DNA from: a virus
Lineage: Duplodnaviria > Caudoviricetes
Strand: one strand, 5' to 3'
DNA: 64,000 bases
Virus record (IMG/VR): IMGVR_UViG_3300027718_000006
Span: 71-64,070 of that record
Part shown: one piece after another, positions 46,171 to 50,667 of the stretch
Layout: the number at the start of each line of letters is the position of its first letter
Numbering within the stretch: the first letter of the stretch is position 1
Translations under genes and position numbers: made by a program
Notes under the pieces: model-generated
Seen by the model: only the letters and a program-made list of their open reading frames with translations
Told to the model about the DNA's origin: nothing
Databases searched by the model: none

Positions 46171-46297
46171 GAACTAAAATACGACAAAAACCTAATCATA
46201 TCAGGCAATTAAAATAGGTCATATCACTGGAGTTGTCTGTAACTTTATGGTACAATAGAGTAGTACATACAGAATGATTAGGAGGAATGTTCAAAAT

Positions 46298-48070
46298 ATG
46301 AAAATTAATATTGGGACGATGTTTACCAAAGTTGATTTTGAAGGAAATACGCTTCTCAGAGAGAAGATTCAAGATATGGCTCATCATGCATTAGGCGTTA
46401 AAGAAGAAGGTGCTTTTTATTCAAGAGCATATAAATCTGGCTTTTGGGATGGGATTACAGATTTCTATGACATGAAAGAAGACAAGTTCCATACAGGATT
46501 ACTTGATCAGTTTCTAGAAGGACTAAGACAGCTTATGGAAAAGGATAAATCATTTACATACGAACTCGTAGACGAAAGACCTTCCCCACCTGTTCATCAT
46601 GATGCTATTGACGAAAAGATTGTACTAGGTAACGGAGATGAGGAACCTATTACATTACGTGATTATCAATATGAATCTGTCAAAAGTGTATTTGAACAAC
46701 AGGTAGGGATTGTAAACGTAGCAACAAACGGAGGTAAAACAGAAATAGCTTCTGGAGTCATTCAACAAATCCTACCATACATAAAACGTGGAGAGCGTAT
46801 TGCATTCTTTACTCACTCTCGAGAAATTTTTGGACAATCTGCTGAACGTATTGCCAAGCGTGTAGGATTAAAAGTACGTGACGTTGGATTTGTCGGAGAC
46901 GGTAAATTCGATATTAAAAATAAAAAGATTGTATTCGTTATGGTGCCTACACTGGTATCTGCACTGAAAGACCCGAAGAAGGGAATTAAGTTCACACCTA
47001 ACGAAACAGTTATCAAGCTAATTGCTGAAGAGATTACACCGAAGTTTAGAAATACGGTAAATACTCGTAAGCTCATTCAGAATTATTTGAAGAATCGAAC
47101 TTGGAAGACAAAAGCAGAGTTATCCGCTGAAGAGCAATTAATGTATGTGGCTTATGATAAAAAGTTCACTGACAAATCTGCTCAGATGCATTTGAATAAA
47201 TACGTAGTGGAATTTAACAAGATCATGGAGAAGAAGAACAAAAAGAAATTCCAAAAGTACAAAGAGACGAAGGAGTTTATGGACTCTATCAAAGTGATGA
47301 TTGCCGATGAGGTTCACCATTCTAAAGCGGATACATGGTATACGTCTCTATCCATGTGTGAGAATGCTATTTACCGTGTAGGTTTAACAGGTACTGTAGA
47401 CAAAAAGGACAAGATGGGATGGCAACGACTACAAGCTATCTTTAGTCAAGTTACAGTTAAAGTATCGAACGAATATCTGATCGATAAAGGTGTATCGTCT
47501 AAACCGACTATTCGACTGGTACCTGTTCAGGAGCCACGTAATTTAGAATTAGCCAGCAATTTCATGGAAGCGTACAAAGCTGGAATCGTAGAAAACGAGT
47601 ATCGTAACAAGTTGATTACAGATTTAGTAGAGTCATATCGTAAGCGTAGACCGGGTGGAGTACTTGTCAGTGTGAAAGAGATCGCACACGGAGAAGCTAT
47701 CCTAGAGATGATACGAGCTAGAGGCTTAGAGGCGGAATTTATTAATGGTGGCTCCGATGCAGACCACCGTGCTACACAGCTGCATCGATTCTCTACAAGT
47801 GAATTGCCGATCTTAATTGCATCTACAATTGTTGATGAAGGAGTAGACATGAAGTCAATTGGCTGTATGGTATTGGGTGCAGGTGGAAAATCAATGCGTC
47901 AACAGCTACAGCGTATTGGTCGTGGACTCCGACTAAACGGAATCGATGGGAACAGCGTTATGGTATTCGATTTTTGGGACGCTACGAACAAATATCTACT
48001 TAACCACTCAAAGGAACGACTGAAGATTTTCCGCTCCGAAAACTTCGATGTAAAAGTTTTAGGAAAATGA
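46298..48070 (+). CDS. SF2 (DExH) DNA helicase; probable start ATG 46298
   Basis: LRDYQ, ATNGGKT (Walker A), IADEVHH, GLTGT, QQLQRIGRGLR. Confidence 0.92.
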   Translation: MKINIGTMFTKVDFEGNTLLREKIQDMAHHALGVKEEGAFYSRAYKSGFWDGITDFYDMKEDKFHTGLLDQFLEGLRQLMEKDKSFTYELVDERPSPPVHHDAIDEKIVLGNGDEEPITLRDYQYESVKSVFEQQVGIVNVATNGGKTEIASGVIQQILPYIKRGERIAFFTHSREIFGQSAERIAKRVGLKVRDVGFVGDGKFDIKNKKIVFVMVPTLVSALKDPKKGIKFTPNETVIKLIAEEITPKFRNTVNTRKLIQNYLKNRTWKTKAELSAEEQLMYVAYDKKFTDKSAQMHLNKYVVEFNKIMEKKNKKKFQKYKETKEFMDSIKVMIADEVHHSKADTWYTSLSMCENAIYRVGLTGTVDKKDKMGWQRLQAIFSQVTVKVSNEYLIDKGVSSKPTIRLVPVQEPRNLELASNFMEAYKAGIVENEYRNKLITDLVESYRKRRPGGVLVSVKEIAHGEAILEMIRARGLEAEFINGGSDADHRATQLHRFSTSELPILIASTIVDEGVDMKSIGCMVLGAGGKSMRQQLQRIGRGLRLNGIDGNSVMVFDFWDATNKYLLNHSKERLKIFRSENFDVKVLGK

Positions 48071-48091
48071 TGTTAGTGTTCTTGGGCGATC

Positions 48092-48104
48092 TGCTATATT
48101 ATAA
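48092..48104 (+). promoter_or_regulatory. Late-type promoter in front of the HNH gene
   Basis: TGCTATATTATAA. Confidence 0.55.
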
Positions 48105-48135
48105 CTAGACAGGTAAAAAAAAGGAGTGTTATAAA

Positions 48136-48912
48136 ATGGCAGATTTAAAAACTTGTAGCAAATGTGGAGTGTCTAAAGAGGATATCCCCGATATTTTTCG
48201 ACATAAGAAAGGCAGAAAGTCTTCAGAGTCAGCATGTAGAGACTGTGAGAGGGCTTATGCTCGTAAGCAGGGCAAAGCTTATTACAAAAACAATAAGGAG
48301 AAGGTAGACAAGAGAAATAAAGAGTGGAATGAGAAAAACAAAGAGAAAATGAAAGAGTACATGAAGGAGTACCATGCACAACGATATTTGGATAAAAAAG
48401 ATGAGCTTATGGAAAAGCAAAGACAGTACCGAAAGGACAATGAACGATTTAAGCAACATGCTCGAGAATACTACCAAAAGAATAAAGAGTGGATAAATAA
48501 ACGGAACAAAATGTGGAGAGAGGCTAATCGAGATAAAGTAGCTGAAACAGTCCGTAAGTGGTGGAAGAGAAACAAGAATAAGCGCAGAGAGTATAACCAG
48601 ACAAGAAGAGCTAAAGTACGTGAATTAGTAGCTGATTTGACAGTAGAACAGTGGGAGCTCATTCAGGAATACTTTAACCATTGTTGCGCTTACTGCGGAG
48701 AAGAGAAGGCACTTACTCAAGATCATTTTATTCCTGTAAGTTCAGGAGGAGGATATACAGTAACAAATATTGTCCCTGCTTGTCTTTCATGTAATAGCAG
48801 TAAACACGATAATGACTTTTTCGAATGGTACTCTAACCATGAGAACTACACCGAGGAACGAGTCGAAAAGCTGTATCAGTTTTTTGAAGACGTAAAAGTC
48901 CTAGGTAAATAA
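48136..48912 (+). CDS. Free-standing HNH endonuclease
   Basis: N-terminal CxxC...CxxC, basic helical repeats, then CAYCG...TQDHFIPVSSGGGYTVTNIVPACLSCNSSK. Confidence 0.9.
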   Translation: MADLKTCSKCGVSKEDIPDIFRHKKGRKSSESACRDCERAYARKQGKAYYKNNKEKVDKRNKEWNEKNKEKMKEYMKEYHAQRYLDKKDELMEKQRQYRKDNERFKQHAREYYQKNKEWINKRNKMWREANRDKVAETVRKWWKRNKNKRREYNQTRRAKVRELVADLTVEQWELIQEYFNHCCAYCGEEKALTQDHFIPVSSGGGYTVTNIVPACLSCNSSKHDNDFFEWYSNHENYTEERVEKLYQFFEDVKVLGK

Positions 48913-48978
48913 CTATTGTATATTTTACAGTTTGTGTTATAATGTAATCAAACCTATATCAAGAGGAGGAACAGATGT

Positions 48979-50667
48979 ATGGAATACGGTGTGTATTTAG
49001 AAACATCTGTTGTCAGTTTAAAGCCTAATGTTTTAACTTTCTTAACCAAAATGGTTGAAAAGGCAAAAGAGGTAAAAGACTTCGCTATCGCTTTCAAAAA
49101 GAAAGAGCTAGCAGAACTGGGCGGAAAAGACAGCAGAACAATTTCACGTTACTTAAATGAATTAGAAGAAAAGAATATTATCCAAACGAAAGGCGTTCGT
49201 GGTCGTTCAGGGGGAACCGTTATTATGTTCAATACAGACTTAATTCGATTCGACACCTCGGACAAAGCACTAATCAACTCCGATGAACCGATCAGCATTG
49301 ATGACGTAGTAGAGAAGAAGATTCCTAAGAAGAAAAAGGAGCAAAAGAAACCTACTCGTAATCGTAGAACTAAGTTACAGATGCTTGAAGAAAAGCTGAT
49401 CAAGGGAGAGCAGCAGTCGAAGAATGACCAAATGAACCAAGAGCTTAAGGAGCTAGGCGGAGTGCCTAACTGGGCTTGGTTCCAAAAAACAGAAGACCCG
49501 GTAGGAAACTATCGTACATATTTACTATCTCGTCTGTATAATAGATACGCAGTTTTATTTACAGACCGACATAATGCAGAAGCACAGTACTTCGGAGAAG
49601 GCTCGAAAGTTAAGCCTGTAACGAATGATTACGATACATTGCCGGAGGATTTCTTTGGCTCTTCTAAATGGGCTCACTTTGAGAAGTTTCGTAACTTCTG
49701 TGAAGAGAATGAGATTGACCCAGCTGTATATCTATCTTCGCAATTCTCACGTTCTGTATTTACAGCAGCAGGTAAGAGTGATAAGAAAAAGCTTCCATTT
49801 GTAAATGCCCTAATTAGTGACTCAGCTTATGAAGTGTACAAACAGTATTGCGCTTATCAAGTAAAGGCAAGTGTAACATACAAATCATACCAACAAATCC
49901 CTAAACAGTTTGCAGATGATTTCGTAGTACGTGCAATCGAAGATGCTTATGAAACAGCTAATGCAGGAGTAGGGTTATTACAGTACCGACATGCAATTGA
50001 AGATTTCTTAAGTGGATTTGGTGCTACAGAAAAAGAAGAGCACCTATTAAATTTCTACCGTCACACAGAAGATAAGCTGATTCAAAAAGGCGTATCGTTA
50101 AAGACGAGAGATACAATTAAGAAATTCGTATTGTTGCAGTCAATGATTTTAACAGGTGGAGTAACATCTTTACCGGGCTACTTCATTTTAGGTTCGGAGC
50201 ATACACAAGTCGTATTAGCTTCTATTGCTAAGCTAGGTAACTCAGTTCAGGATGTAAATGCCTTACAGAAGATAGCACTAGGAATGTTTGTATCTCCTAC
50301 TGCAAATAGAGAGGCACAAATTAAAGAAGGTGCAAAGTATATGTACCAACTAGACGTGCTTGACGAAACAAGACAAGTATTAAATCTGATTATGGAACGT
50401 AAAGGTTTACATTTGTCGCTAGCTGATTTGAATGAAGCTTTCCGTGAGTACGGCAAAGAGAATGTTCCAGTGGACGATTATTCGATTATGGATATTGATA
50501 AAATTATAGACTTTATGAAACAGCAACATGCAATTACTAAGCAAGAGGAAATCGATCATCAAGCAATTACAACAACAAAAGTAAAAGAATATGCGCTTAC
50601 TGGAGAGGTTTTCAATGAAGACTCTCTGGAAGATGCGCTTAGTGAATTTTTAGAGTCTGATCATTAA
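48979..50667 (+). CDS. Conserved HTH DNA-binding protein (putative replication/transcription factor)
   Basis: KKELAELGGKDSRTISRYLNELEEKNII.TKG.RGR.GGT winged HTH; lies between the two helicases. TGTTATAAT at 48935. Confidence 0.7.
   Translation: MEYGVYLETSVVSLKPNVLTFLTKMVEKAKEVKDFAIAFKKKELAELGGKDSRTISRYLNELEEKNIIQTKGVRGRSGGTVIMFNTDLIRFDTSDKALINSDEPISIDDVVEKKIPKKKKEQKKPTRNRRTKLQMLEEKLIKGEQQSKNDQMNQELKELGGVPNWAWFQKTEDPVGNYRTYLLSRLYNRYAVLFTDRHNAEAQYFGEGSKVKPVTNDYDTLPEDFFGSSKWAHFEKFRNFCEENEIDPAVYLSSQFSRSVFTAAGKSDKKKLPFVNALISDSAYEVYKQYCAYQVKASVTYKSYQQIPKQFADDFVVRAIEDAYETANAGVGLLQYRHAIEDFLSGFGATEKEEHLLNFYRHTEDKLIQKGVSLKTRDTIKKFVLLQSMILTGGVTSLPGYFILGSEHTQVVLASIAKLGNSVQDVNALQKIALGMFVSPTANREAQIKEGAKYMYQLDVLDETRQVLNLIMERKGLHLSLADLNEAFREYGKENVPVDDYSIMDIDKIIDFMKQQHAITKQEEIDHQAITTTKVKEYALTGEVFNEDSLEDALSEFLESDH

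What the first reader, a model, noticed from the sequence alone, without database searches (positions are those of the whole stretch)
48047..48912. HNH endonuclease ends with the same heptapeptide as the upstream helicase
The helicase ends DVKVLGK* (gat gta aaa gtt tta gga aaa tga, 48047-48070). The HNH ends DVKVLGK* (gac gta aaa gtc cta ggt aaa taa, 48889-48912). All five differences are synonymous. Inference: the HNH cassette inserted into the helicase 3' end, supplied a recoded and possibly cleavage-resistant replacement end, and fused in frame to the original terminus. This records an intron-less homing event and predicts the target site.
Basis: partly seen in the sequence, partly recalled or inferred. 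Interest (0 to 1): 0.72.

Follow-up and report, generated by a model that had tools for sequence, protein, structure and literature searches.

The report
Homing endonuclease borrowing the helicase's tail
A selfish HNH endonuclease gene sits inside the last few codons of a phage helicase gene: it carries a spare copy of those codons for the helicase and uses a second copy as its own ending, an arrangement known from fungal mitochondria that I could not find described for phages.

Summary
The helicase (46274-48070) and the HNH gene (48136-48912) both end in DVKVLGK-stop, and their 24-mers differ at 5 synonymous sites.

The tail comes from the helicase:
- About 100 related helicases end in FDVKxLGx.
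- Of 120 HNH homologues, only the five that sit behind this helicase carry the tail. The others end in ...YLxYxxxxQQLxxx.

A third, decayed copy (48069-48089) lies just 5' of the HNH promoter.

The site between the helicase and HTH genes is variably occupied: this HNH, a different HNH, a 62-aa ORF, or nothing.

A 96%-identical relative with an empty site (L027) matches neither copy. It differs at 6/24 and 5/24 sites, all synonymous, yet the 195 nt downstream are identical. So both copies belong to the HNH-bearing haplotype. "Fused to this genome's original terminus" is not.

Two strains in one metagenome differ by 11% in the helicase. They become identical 45 nt before the stop and stay so into the cassette.

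Best reading: a free-standing homing endonuclease gene embedded in the helicase 3' end, bounded by direct repeats of it. Cleavage and homing are untested. The closest known parallel is the fungal mitochondrial mobile endonuclease ORF with a duplicated gene C-terminus. I rate this a new variant of a known kind.

The parts
46274..48070 (+). UvsW/XPB-like SF2 DNA helicase gene (598 aa from the first ATG; gene callers use 46319, giving 583 aa)
   Evidence: Pfam ResIII + Helicase_C. PHROG DNA helicase. Matches T4 UvsW 2OCA and XPB in the PDB. AF2 model pLDDT 86, with the tail DVKV as a terminal beta strand.
48047..48070 (+). Repeat copy A: the last 7 codons and stop of the helicase (DVKVLGK*). The preceding F codon starts at 48044.
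   Evidence: Differs at 6/24 synonymous sites from the empty-site relative L027, although the upstream sequence is about 96% identical.
48069..48089 (+). Repeat copy B: a decayed, untranslated copy of the helicase end (reads DVSVLGR). It overlaps the helicase stop and sits directly 5' of the HNH promoter.
   Evidence: In the alignment of the five spacers, B aligns with nearly intact copies in L016 (FDVKVLGN), ENA and f2b1, and with the functional helicase end of the JGI locus.
48092..48126 (+). The HNH gene's own expression signals: an extended -10-like TGCTATATT (48092-48100) and the ribosome-binding site AAGGAG (48121-48126)
   Evidence: TG(C/T)TATATTAT is conserved in all five cassettes. 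The consensus scanner did not call it because there is no good -35. Inferred, not shown.
48136..48912 (+). Free-standing HNH endonuclease gene (258 aa): N-terminal CxxC...CxxC, helical NKEK repeats, and a C-terminal HNH finger
   Evidence: Pfam HNH and HNH_5 above threshold. PHROG endonuclease VII/HNH. AF2 pLDDT 93.8. Fold matches Cas9 HNH, the Gme HNH nickase and McrA. No Rfam intron.
48889..48912 (+). Repeat copy C: the last 7 codons and stop of the HNH ORF (DVKVLGK*). It is helicase-derived and replaces the family's native tail.
   Evidence: Positionally orthologous to the native helicase end. Differs at 5/24 sites from the L027 empty allele. Low-confidence end of the HNH model (pLDDT about 63).
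48913..48978 (+). Native intergenic region with the promoter of the HTH gene (TTGTAT 48916-48921, 16 nt spacer, TGtTATAAT 48935-48943)
   Evidence: Identical to L027 for 195 nt starting at the first base after the stop. Shared with Goe8, IMG25, Mater and P59.
48979..50667 (+). Conserved 562-aa HTH DNA-binding protein gene (right flank of the hot spot)
   Evidence: PHROG 1098, E 3e-206. Weak HTH_Crp_2 match.

Best explanation
The 258-aa ORF is a free-standing HNH homing-endonuclease gene lodged inside the 3' end of the helicase gene, in a hot spot between the helicase and HTH genes of Bastillevirinae phages. The mobile haplotype is bounded by two direct copies of the helicase's last 7-8 codons. 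Copy A lets the helicase finish normally. Copy C provides the last seven codons and the stop of the HNH ORF, whose native tail of about 12 aa was lost when the family first fused to a helicase end. Copy B is an older helicase end that now lies untranslated beside the HNH promoter. In one relative (JGI) it is still the working helicase end. Proposed mechanism (inferred): the enzyme cuts or nicks empty-site alleles in or near the terminal 24-mer. The left broken end pairs with A and the right with C. Repair then copies everything between them, so A and C are always co-converted with the gene, while the flanks recombine freely. The insertion interrupts the target and so protects the carrier. The spare end keeps the essential helicase intact without an intron or an intein.
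For: The tail is native to the helicase and foreign to the HNH family. All five tail-bearing HNHs lie between the helicase and HTH genes, with copy C in the position of the native helicase end. Presence or absence varies at one site among close relatives: empty in L027, Mater, P59, L029, Moonbeam and Shbh1; a different HNH in Goe8; a 62-aa ORF in IMG25, Goe3, Eldridge and phiAGATE. A contig from another study joins 48052 to 48895, skipping 842 nt, and a third variant replaces the segment by 210 nt. HNH similarity does not track host similarity: window-JGI HNH is 67% identical, the highest value, while the HTH protein is 57%, the lowest. Sharp haplotype boundaries: window versus L027 shows 6/24 differences in A and 5/24 in C, against backgrounds of 4.1% and 3.1%, with 0/195 immediately to the right. 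Two strains in JGI sample 3300038652 differ at 42/376 nt and then at 0/81 nt, from 45 nt before the helicase stop into the cassette (P about 7e-5). The last 40 codons of the helicase are the synonymous-divergence maximum of the gene among the four close relatives (pS about 1.0-1.3 versus 0.47-0.49). The catalytic HNH finger is intact and confidently folded, there are cassette-specific promoter and RBS sequences, and no intron was found.
Against: No cleavage, nicking or homing has been observed, so the target site is inferred only from where the haplotype boundaries fall. The five HNHs are only 57-67% identical, so no recent transfer between sampled genomes is documented apart from the JGI strain pair, where one contig ends 36 nt into the cassette. 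Clusters of differences occur elsewhere between the window and L027 (for example 13 differences in 43 nt about 500 nt upstream). A cluster at the repeat is therefore suggestive but not unique. A simple relic model does not explain why copy C stays as conserved at the protein level as real helicase ends (pN 0.20 versus 0.23, against 0.35 for B). Nor does it explain why A and C tend to co-vary within a genome. The origin of the three-copy state is unresolved.
Confidence: 0.65

Rival explanations
1. One reading: the cassette carried only a recoded replacement end (A), and on insertion it fused in frame to the resident helicase's own last codons (C). C would then be the recipient's original terminus.
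For: C is collinear with the native end plus the intergenic region. In f2b1 and JGI, the last codon and stop of C are identical to those of the local helicase end (AGC TGA, CAG TAA), while the preceding 18 nt differ at 6-7 sites. This could mark a crossover inside C. The same logic is documented for fungal mORFs (PMC3630166).
Against: In the only close plus/minus pair, C differs from the empty allele at 5/24 sites while the next 195 nt are identical. C is no closer than A to any native end (3-7 differences to L027, IMG25 and Goe8; sequences).
Confidence: 0.12
2. Functional tail: the heptapeptide is kept in the HNH by selection. It might replace the lost native C-terminal segment or act as a shared contact, so the resemblance would be maintained rather than merely inherited.
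For: Synonymous sites between A and C are saturated (pS 0.8-1.0), yet pN is 0.14 overall and about 0.09 by hand without L016. C copies are as conserved between genomes as real helicase ends and more conserved than the untranslated B copies. Within-genome co-variation: K/K, Q/Q, VVGK/VIGK, S/S (permutation 6/120). All five ORFs keep the same stop position.
Against: There are only five loci and P is about 0.05. In L016 the two tails differ at 4/7 positions. In the helicase model the peptide is a structural beta strand, whereas in the HNH model it is a low-confidence helix end, so there is no shared structural role. Repeated co-conversion from functional helicase ends would give the same pattern.
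Confidence: 0.13
3. Coincidence or a generic HNH ending: the two proteins share the ending by chance, or because this HNH family normally ends that way.
For: Distant homologues have a loosely similar x-V/Y-K just after the YL motif (HVK, DYK, ERK). The helicase HSKER and the HNH-family YSKER happen to lie in register (repeat D5).
Against: None of the 115 other homologues ends in D.K.[LIVM]G. The chance probability is about 3e-9. The arrangement recurs in five loci, with variants that follow the local helicase.
Confidence: 0.01
4. Not a mobile endonuclease: a resident replication or repair nuclease that was vertically inherited with the helicase, then lost or replaced in some lineages. The repeats would be a one-off ancient duplication.
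For: The HNHs are old (57-67% identity) and always occupy the same site. No recent transfer between named phages is seen.
Against: The closest relatives (L027, IMG25, Goe8, at 87-96% nt identity) all lack it. HNH and host similarities are incongruent. The JGI strain pair shares an identical junction on an 11%-diverged helicase.
Confidence: 0.09

Closest known systems
Mobile endonuclease ORFs (mORFs) of fungal mitochondria with a duplicated gene C-terminus (Allomyces macrogynus atp6; Glomus sp. atp6, atp9, cox2, nad3; PMC3630166, read)
   Same: An endonuclease gene is inserted in the 3' end of an essential gene. The element carries a replacement C-terminal coding piece, so the host gene stays whole. 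A second copy of that C-terminus lies downstream of the endonuclease. The differences between copies are largely silent at the protein level.
   Different: Here the host is a phage and the enzyme is an HNH (LAGLIDADG or GIY-YIG in the fungal cases). The repeat is only 24-27 nt (about 50-280 nt in Glomus). The endonuclease is a separate gene with its own promoter and start, not fused to the upstream gene. Instead, the endonuclease ORF ends in the downstream copy. That downstream copy is not closer to the empty allele than the upstream one, whereas in the fungi it is (91-98% versus 64-81%). A third decayed copy is also present.
Free-standing homing endonucleases of T4-like phages and intron-less homing (SegE, SegF, SegG, MobE; review PMC2988022)
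   Same: A free-standing nuclease gene lies between conserved genes. Its presence is patchy, flanking sequence is co-converted, and it neighbours a UvsW-type helicase (T4 segE lies beside uvsW and targets it).
   Different: The T4 genes sit between genes or overlap the upstream stop, and their cleavage sites can lie far from the insertion. That review, as far as I searched it, does not describe repeats of the target gene's end, or an endonuclease ORF that ends in target-gene codons.
mobE insertion splitting nrdA in Aeromonas phage Aeh1 (PMC3045599)
   Same: An HNH homing endonuclease sits inside an essential phage gene, and short terminal peptides created by the insertion make the arrangement viable.
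   Different: In Aeh1 the host gene is split in two, and new tails hold the halves together. Here the host gene is kept whole by a spare end, and the endonuclease is the protein that gains a host-derived tail.
I-TevI autorepression through a homing-site-like operator over its own promoter (PMC2988022)
   Same: Copy B is a target-like sequence at a fixed distance (7-9 nt) 5' of the -10 of the endonuclease gene in all five loci.
   Different: This rests on positional analogy only. No binding or repression was tested, and B may simply be a decaying scar.
Nuclease genes at boundaries of genetic exchange in ICP1 phages (PMC10448857)
   Same: A nuclease gene marks a sharp change in sequence relatedness, next to an essential gene.
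   Different: My term search of that paper found no target-end duplication or borrowed tail.

Membership tests
HNH (beta-beta-alpha-Me) endonuclease, Pfam PF01844 / PF14279 | Profile match above the curated threshold | tested here: met
   PF01844 43.3 bits (cut-off 21.4); PF14279 39.5 bits (cut-off 27.5); residues 184-225.
HNH (beta-beta-alpha-Me) endonuclease, Pfam PF01844 / PF14279 | Catalytic His, structural or metal Asn, and two Cys pairs of the zinc-bound finger are conserved | tested here: met
   Invariant C184, C187, H197, N211, C216, C219 and N220 in 42 homologues.
HNH (beta-beta-alpha-Me) endonuclease, Pfam PF01844 / PF14279 | HNH fold | tested here: met
   AF2 pLDDT 93.8. Foldseek hits to Cas9 HNH domains, the Gme HNH nickase 4H9D and McrA 6GHC, with probability 1.0 but weak E-values of 4e-4 to 3e-3.
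Free-standing homing endonuclease gene | Presence/absence polymorphism at one locus among close relatives | tested here: met
   L027 (about 96% nt identity) is empty. A contig in run X2 skips 842 nt. Goe8, IMG25, Mater and P59 carry other occupants or none.
Free-standing homing endonuclease gene | Not inside an intron or intein; has its own expression signals | tested here: met
   Separate ORF with an RBS and a conserved TGnTATATT. No Rfam match. Promoter activity itself was not tested.
Free-standing homing endonuclease gene | Gene history differs from host history; flanks are co-converted | tested here: met
   Identity matrices. Boundaries in window/L027 and in L028/L014.
Free-standing homing endonuclease gene | Site-specific cleavage of the empty allele and preferential inheritance | not testable with these tools
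   Needs enzyme assays and phage crosses.
Fungal-type mORF with C-terminal duplication | Endonuclease ORF in the 3' end of a host gene, flanked by two copies of that gene's C-terminal coding sequence | tested here: met
   Copies A and C flank the cassette in five loci.
Fungal-type mORF with C-terminal duplication | The downstream (native) copy is closer than the inserted copy to the element-free relative | tested here: not met
   C differs at 5/24 and A at 6/24 from the L027 empty allele.
Fungal-type mORF with C-terminal duplication | Endonuclease ORF in phase with, and fused to, the upstream host gene | tested here: not met
   The helicase stops at 48070. The HNH starts at its own ATG at 48136, after a 65-nt spacer.

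The most novel reading that the evidence does not exclude
The endonuclease has put three copies of its own target to work: one as a spare end for the host helicase, one as a selected C-terminal peptide of the enzyme that co-evolves with the helicase tail, and one as an operator over its own promoter. The helicase's last codons would then be a synonymous arms-race hot spot between the enzyme and resistant empty alleles.
Probability: 0.12. Interest if true: 0.78.

Novelty: new variant of a known kind. Interest (0 to 1): 0.56.

Why it matters
Homing endonucleases prefer conserved targets in essential genes, but inserting there is lethal unless the interruption is neutralised. Introns and inteins are the textbook solutions. 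Split genes with adaptor tails (Aeh1 nrdA) and translational bypassing (T4 gene 60) are the rarer phage solutions. A spare gene end carried by the element is known from fungal mitochondria. Finding it in five Bacillus phages shows that the same trick arose in viruses. It also gives a compact, testable system of roughly 840 bp with natural empty alleles. The anatomy predicts where the enzyme should cut. It could also explain why the helicase's last 40 codons are the fastest-changing synonymous stretch of the gene. For annotators, the lesson is that a short peptide shared by neighbouring genes can be an insertion scar.

Tried and rejected
1. Scans of viral contigs with the HNH and with the junction 21-mer found only distant HNHs or Goe8. 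The useful relatives came from the protein searches and contig look-ups.
2. I first read the fall in window-Goe8 identity over the last 90 nt of the helicase as a co-conversion tract specific to this HNH. I rejected that because all three pairs among window, Goe8 and IMG25 fall alike. It is a property of the site, not of this insert.
3. Repeat D5 (48002-48019 versus 48844-48861, same spacing as the 24-mers) suggested a duplication of about 70 nt. I rejected this: by my own count, about 4 of the 27 nt between them match, and YSKER is native to the HNH family at unrelated loci.
4. The consensus promoter scan does not call the HNH promoter. The conserved TGnTATATT is therefore only an inference.
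5. I tested whether L027's end could be a simple A/C recombinant from deletion of the cassette. It cannot: it has 4 private differences from both copies.
6. No close empty-site partner exists for the JGI, ENA or f2b1 lineages; the best is 85% aa identity or less. The plus/minus comparison therefore rests on one pair, plus the contigs.
7. Literature searches for a phage example of a target-end duplication by a homing endonuclease found none. PMC2248197 was read and is unrelated.
8. Earlier notes of this scan near the site concern other features.
9. No complex prediction was run, because there is no candidate partner for the tail.
10. The runs found hold contigs only, so read-level heterogeneity could not be examined. 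Parts without cover carry no weight.
Full report
**1. What is there**

The window is a fragment of an uncultured Bastillevirinae (Herelleviridae) phage. Its nearest named relative is Bacillus megaterium phage Goe8, at 89% nt identity over the aligned 70% of the query.

- ORF 46274-48070 is a UvsW/XPB-like SF2 helicase.
- ORF 48136-48912 is an HNH endonuclease with an intact zinc-bound HNH finger. Its model is confident (pLDDT 93.8) and matches HNH nuclease domains.
- Both ORFs end in DVKVLGK-stop. The two 24-mers (48047-48070 and 48889-48912) differ at five positions, none of which changes the peptide.
- Identical heptapeptide ends are not expected by chance (about 3e-9). Only 0.014% of random five-substitution variants keep the peptide and the stop.
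- The sequence is identical in contigs from two other samples, so it is not an assembly artefact.

**2. Whose tail is it?**

FDVKxLGx ends about 100 related helicases, whatever lies downstream. In the helicase model, DVKV is a terminal beta strand with pLDDT about 81.

Of 120 HNH homologues drawn from 5.8 billion proteins, only five end in D.K.[LIVM]G. The others end in ...KILxYLxYxxxxQQLxxx.

All five tail-bearing HNHs lie between this helicase and the HTH gene: the window, phage f2b1, and three metagenome contigs.

So the tail is helicase sequence that replaced the native HNH tail just after the YL motif. The helicase origin stands.

**3. Anatomy: three copies, not two**

Aligning the five spacers shows a further helicase-end copy (B) immediately 5' of a conserved TG(C/T)TATATTAT and the ribosome-binding site.

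| Locus | State of copy B |
|---|---|
| Window | 48069-48089, decayed (reads DVSVLGR) |
| L016 | Nearly intact (FDVKVLGN) |
| JGI | Still the working helicase end, with its stop abutting the -10 |

The cassette is therefore bounded by direct repeats of the helicase terminus. Four genomes carry an extra functional end (A) upstream of B. Copy C plus its stop sits exactly where the native helicase end sits relative to the intergenic promoter region.

**4. The site is a hot spot**

Among relatives, the helicase/HTH junction has four states:
- Empty: Mater, P59, Moonbeam, Shbh1, L029, L027.
- This HNH.
- An unrelated HNH whose ATG overlaps the helicase stop: Goe8.
- A 62-aa ORF: IMG25, Goe3, Eldridge, phiAGATE.

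Contigs from other studies show the same polymorphism. One joins 48052 to 48895, skipping 842 nt, with the joint inside the repeat. Another replaces the segment by 210 nt.

HNH similarity does not follow host similarity. No intron family matches. This is the pattern expected of a free-standing homing endonuclease gene.

**5. The decisive comparison**

L027 is an empty-site relative. It is 95.6% identical to the window over 2068 nt on the left and 97.0% identical over 2950 nt on the right. Its helicase ends gat gtg aaa gtg ctc ggc aaa taa and runs straight into the same intergenic sequence.

- Copy A differs from it at 6/24 sites and copy C at 5/24 sites. All differences are synonymous.
- The differences to the left lie at 1, 6, 9, 11, 12, 18 and 27 nt from the stop, and then only from 60 nt onward.
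- To the right there is no difference for 195 nt. The excesses have P of about 3e-4 and 7e-4.

Neither copy is the empty allele, and L027's end is not an A/C recombinant. Both copies therefore belong to the HNH-bearing haplotype, and its borders hug the repeats.

A second case comes from JGI sample 3300038652. Two strains there differ at 42 of 376 helicase positions, then at 0 of 81, from 45 nt before the stop into the cassette.

In this lineage, however, the HNH's tail is not the recipient's own old terminus.

**6. A fast-changing target**

Among the window, L027, Goe8 and IMG25, the last 40 codons of the helicase have the highest synonymous divergence in the gene (pS about 1.0-1.3, against 0.47-0.49 gene-wide). 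They rank first or second of 29 windows in the five inter-lineage pairs. Nucleotide identity falls from about 87% to 61-67% in the last 60 nt, whatever occupies the site.

This fits repeated exchange at a nuclease-marked boundary (compare PMC10448857). It would also fit selection for resistant target variants. I cannot separate the two.

**7. Mechanism proposed**

- Shown: the gene content, the repeats, the polymorphism and the sharp boundaries.
- Inferred: the enzyme cuts empty alleles in or beside the 24-mer. The two broken ends find A and C. Repair copies the block, so that the target is interrupted and the helicase keeps a full end.
- Also inferred: the first fusion of a 3'-truncated HNH gene to a helicase end.

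**8. What remains odd**

- Synonymous sites between A and C are saturated, yet C is as conserved at the protein level as true helicase ends, and more so than B.
- A and C tend to vary together within a genome: K/K, Q/Q, VVGK/VIGK, S/S. The permutation test gives only 6/120 with five loci, and L016 is an exception.
- In f2b1, B and C differ at 2/18 sites while both differ from A at 7-8/18, so they look like a younger pair.
- These points leave room for a selected tail, patchy conversion, or repeated re-formation of the repeats.
- Copy B's fixed position beside the -10 recalls the homing-site-like operator of I-TevI (PMC2988022). This is untested.

**9. Comparison with what is known**

The closest known kind is the mobile endonuclease ORF of fungal mitochondria, which carries a foreign gene C-terminus and leaves the native one downstream (Allomyces atp6; Glomus atp6, atp9, cox2, nad3; PMC3630166). 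The logic is shared, but several defining details differ. Two of its features were tested here and not met (see the membership table), so I do not file this as a member.

Within phages, the nearest cases are the T4 free-standing endonucleases (PMC2988022) and the mobE-split nrdA of Aeh1, whose insertion-derived tails are essential (PMC3045599). Searches of the held literature found no phage example of a target-end duplication, or of an endonuclease ORF ending in target codons. That library is incomplete.

**10. Verdict**

- This is a new variant of a known kind, of moderate to good interest.

Noticed in passing
L025:2246-2434 (IMG/VR relative); also Goe3 L020:2411-2599, Eldridge L021:2405-2575, phiAGATE L019:2429-2638: A small ORF (56-69 aa; shared C-R-R-A...HG-[VI]-D motif) directly follows the helicase in many relatives, often with an overlapping TAATG. 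It has no Pfam or PHROG match. By its position it recalls T4 uvsW.1 behind uvsW. It may be the ancestral occupant of the site.
   Followed up: partly
L001:3300-4229 (phage Goe8): A different HNH gene (309 aa, PF01844) occupies the same site, with its ATG overlapping the helicase stop (TAATG). Before the shared intergenic sequence it leaves a short cttaaaatttaa that may be a remnant of an older end.
   Followed up: partly
helicase homologues P0132, P0135, P0143, P0148, P0155, P0157 and others: Many related helicases are about 1000 aa long and carry intein and LAGLIDADG domains (PF14890, PF14528). The same gene is therefore targeted by at least three kinds of selfish element.
   Followed up: no
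window 47540-47585 (about 486-528 nt upstream of the helicase stop): There are 13 differences in 43 nt between the window and the otherwise 96%-identical L027. This is a second small mosaic patch inside the helicase gene.
   Followed up: no
window 48136-48650 (N-terminal two thirds of the HNH): An N-terminal CxxC...CxxC is followed by tandem helical repeats of the form Y-x3-NKE-x6-K. The repeat number varies widely among homologues (proteins of 208-361 aa), which suggests a modular DNA-binding array.
   Followed up: no
window 48002-48019 and 48844-48861: The helicase NHSKER and the HNH NYTEER lie in register with the 24-mer repeat (14/18 nt match). Because YSKER is native to the HNH family, this is probably coincidence. 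It might have offered microhomology at the original fusion.
   Followed up: partly
window 48913-49107: The first 195 nt after the HNH stop are identical to L027, against a 3% background (P about 0.002). This is an unusually conserved promoter and 5' region, or a recent exchange.
   Followed up: no
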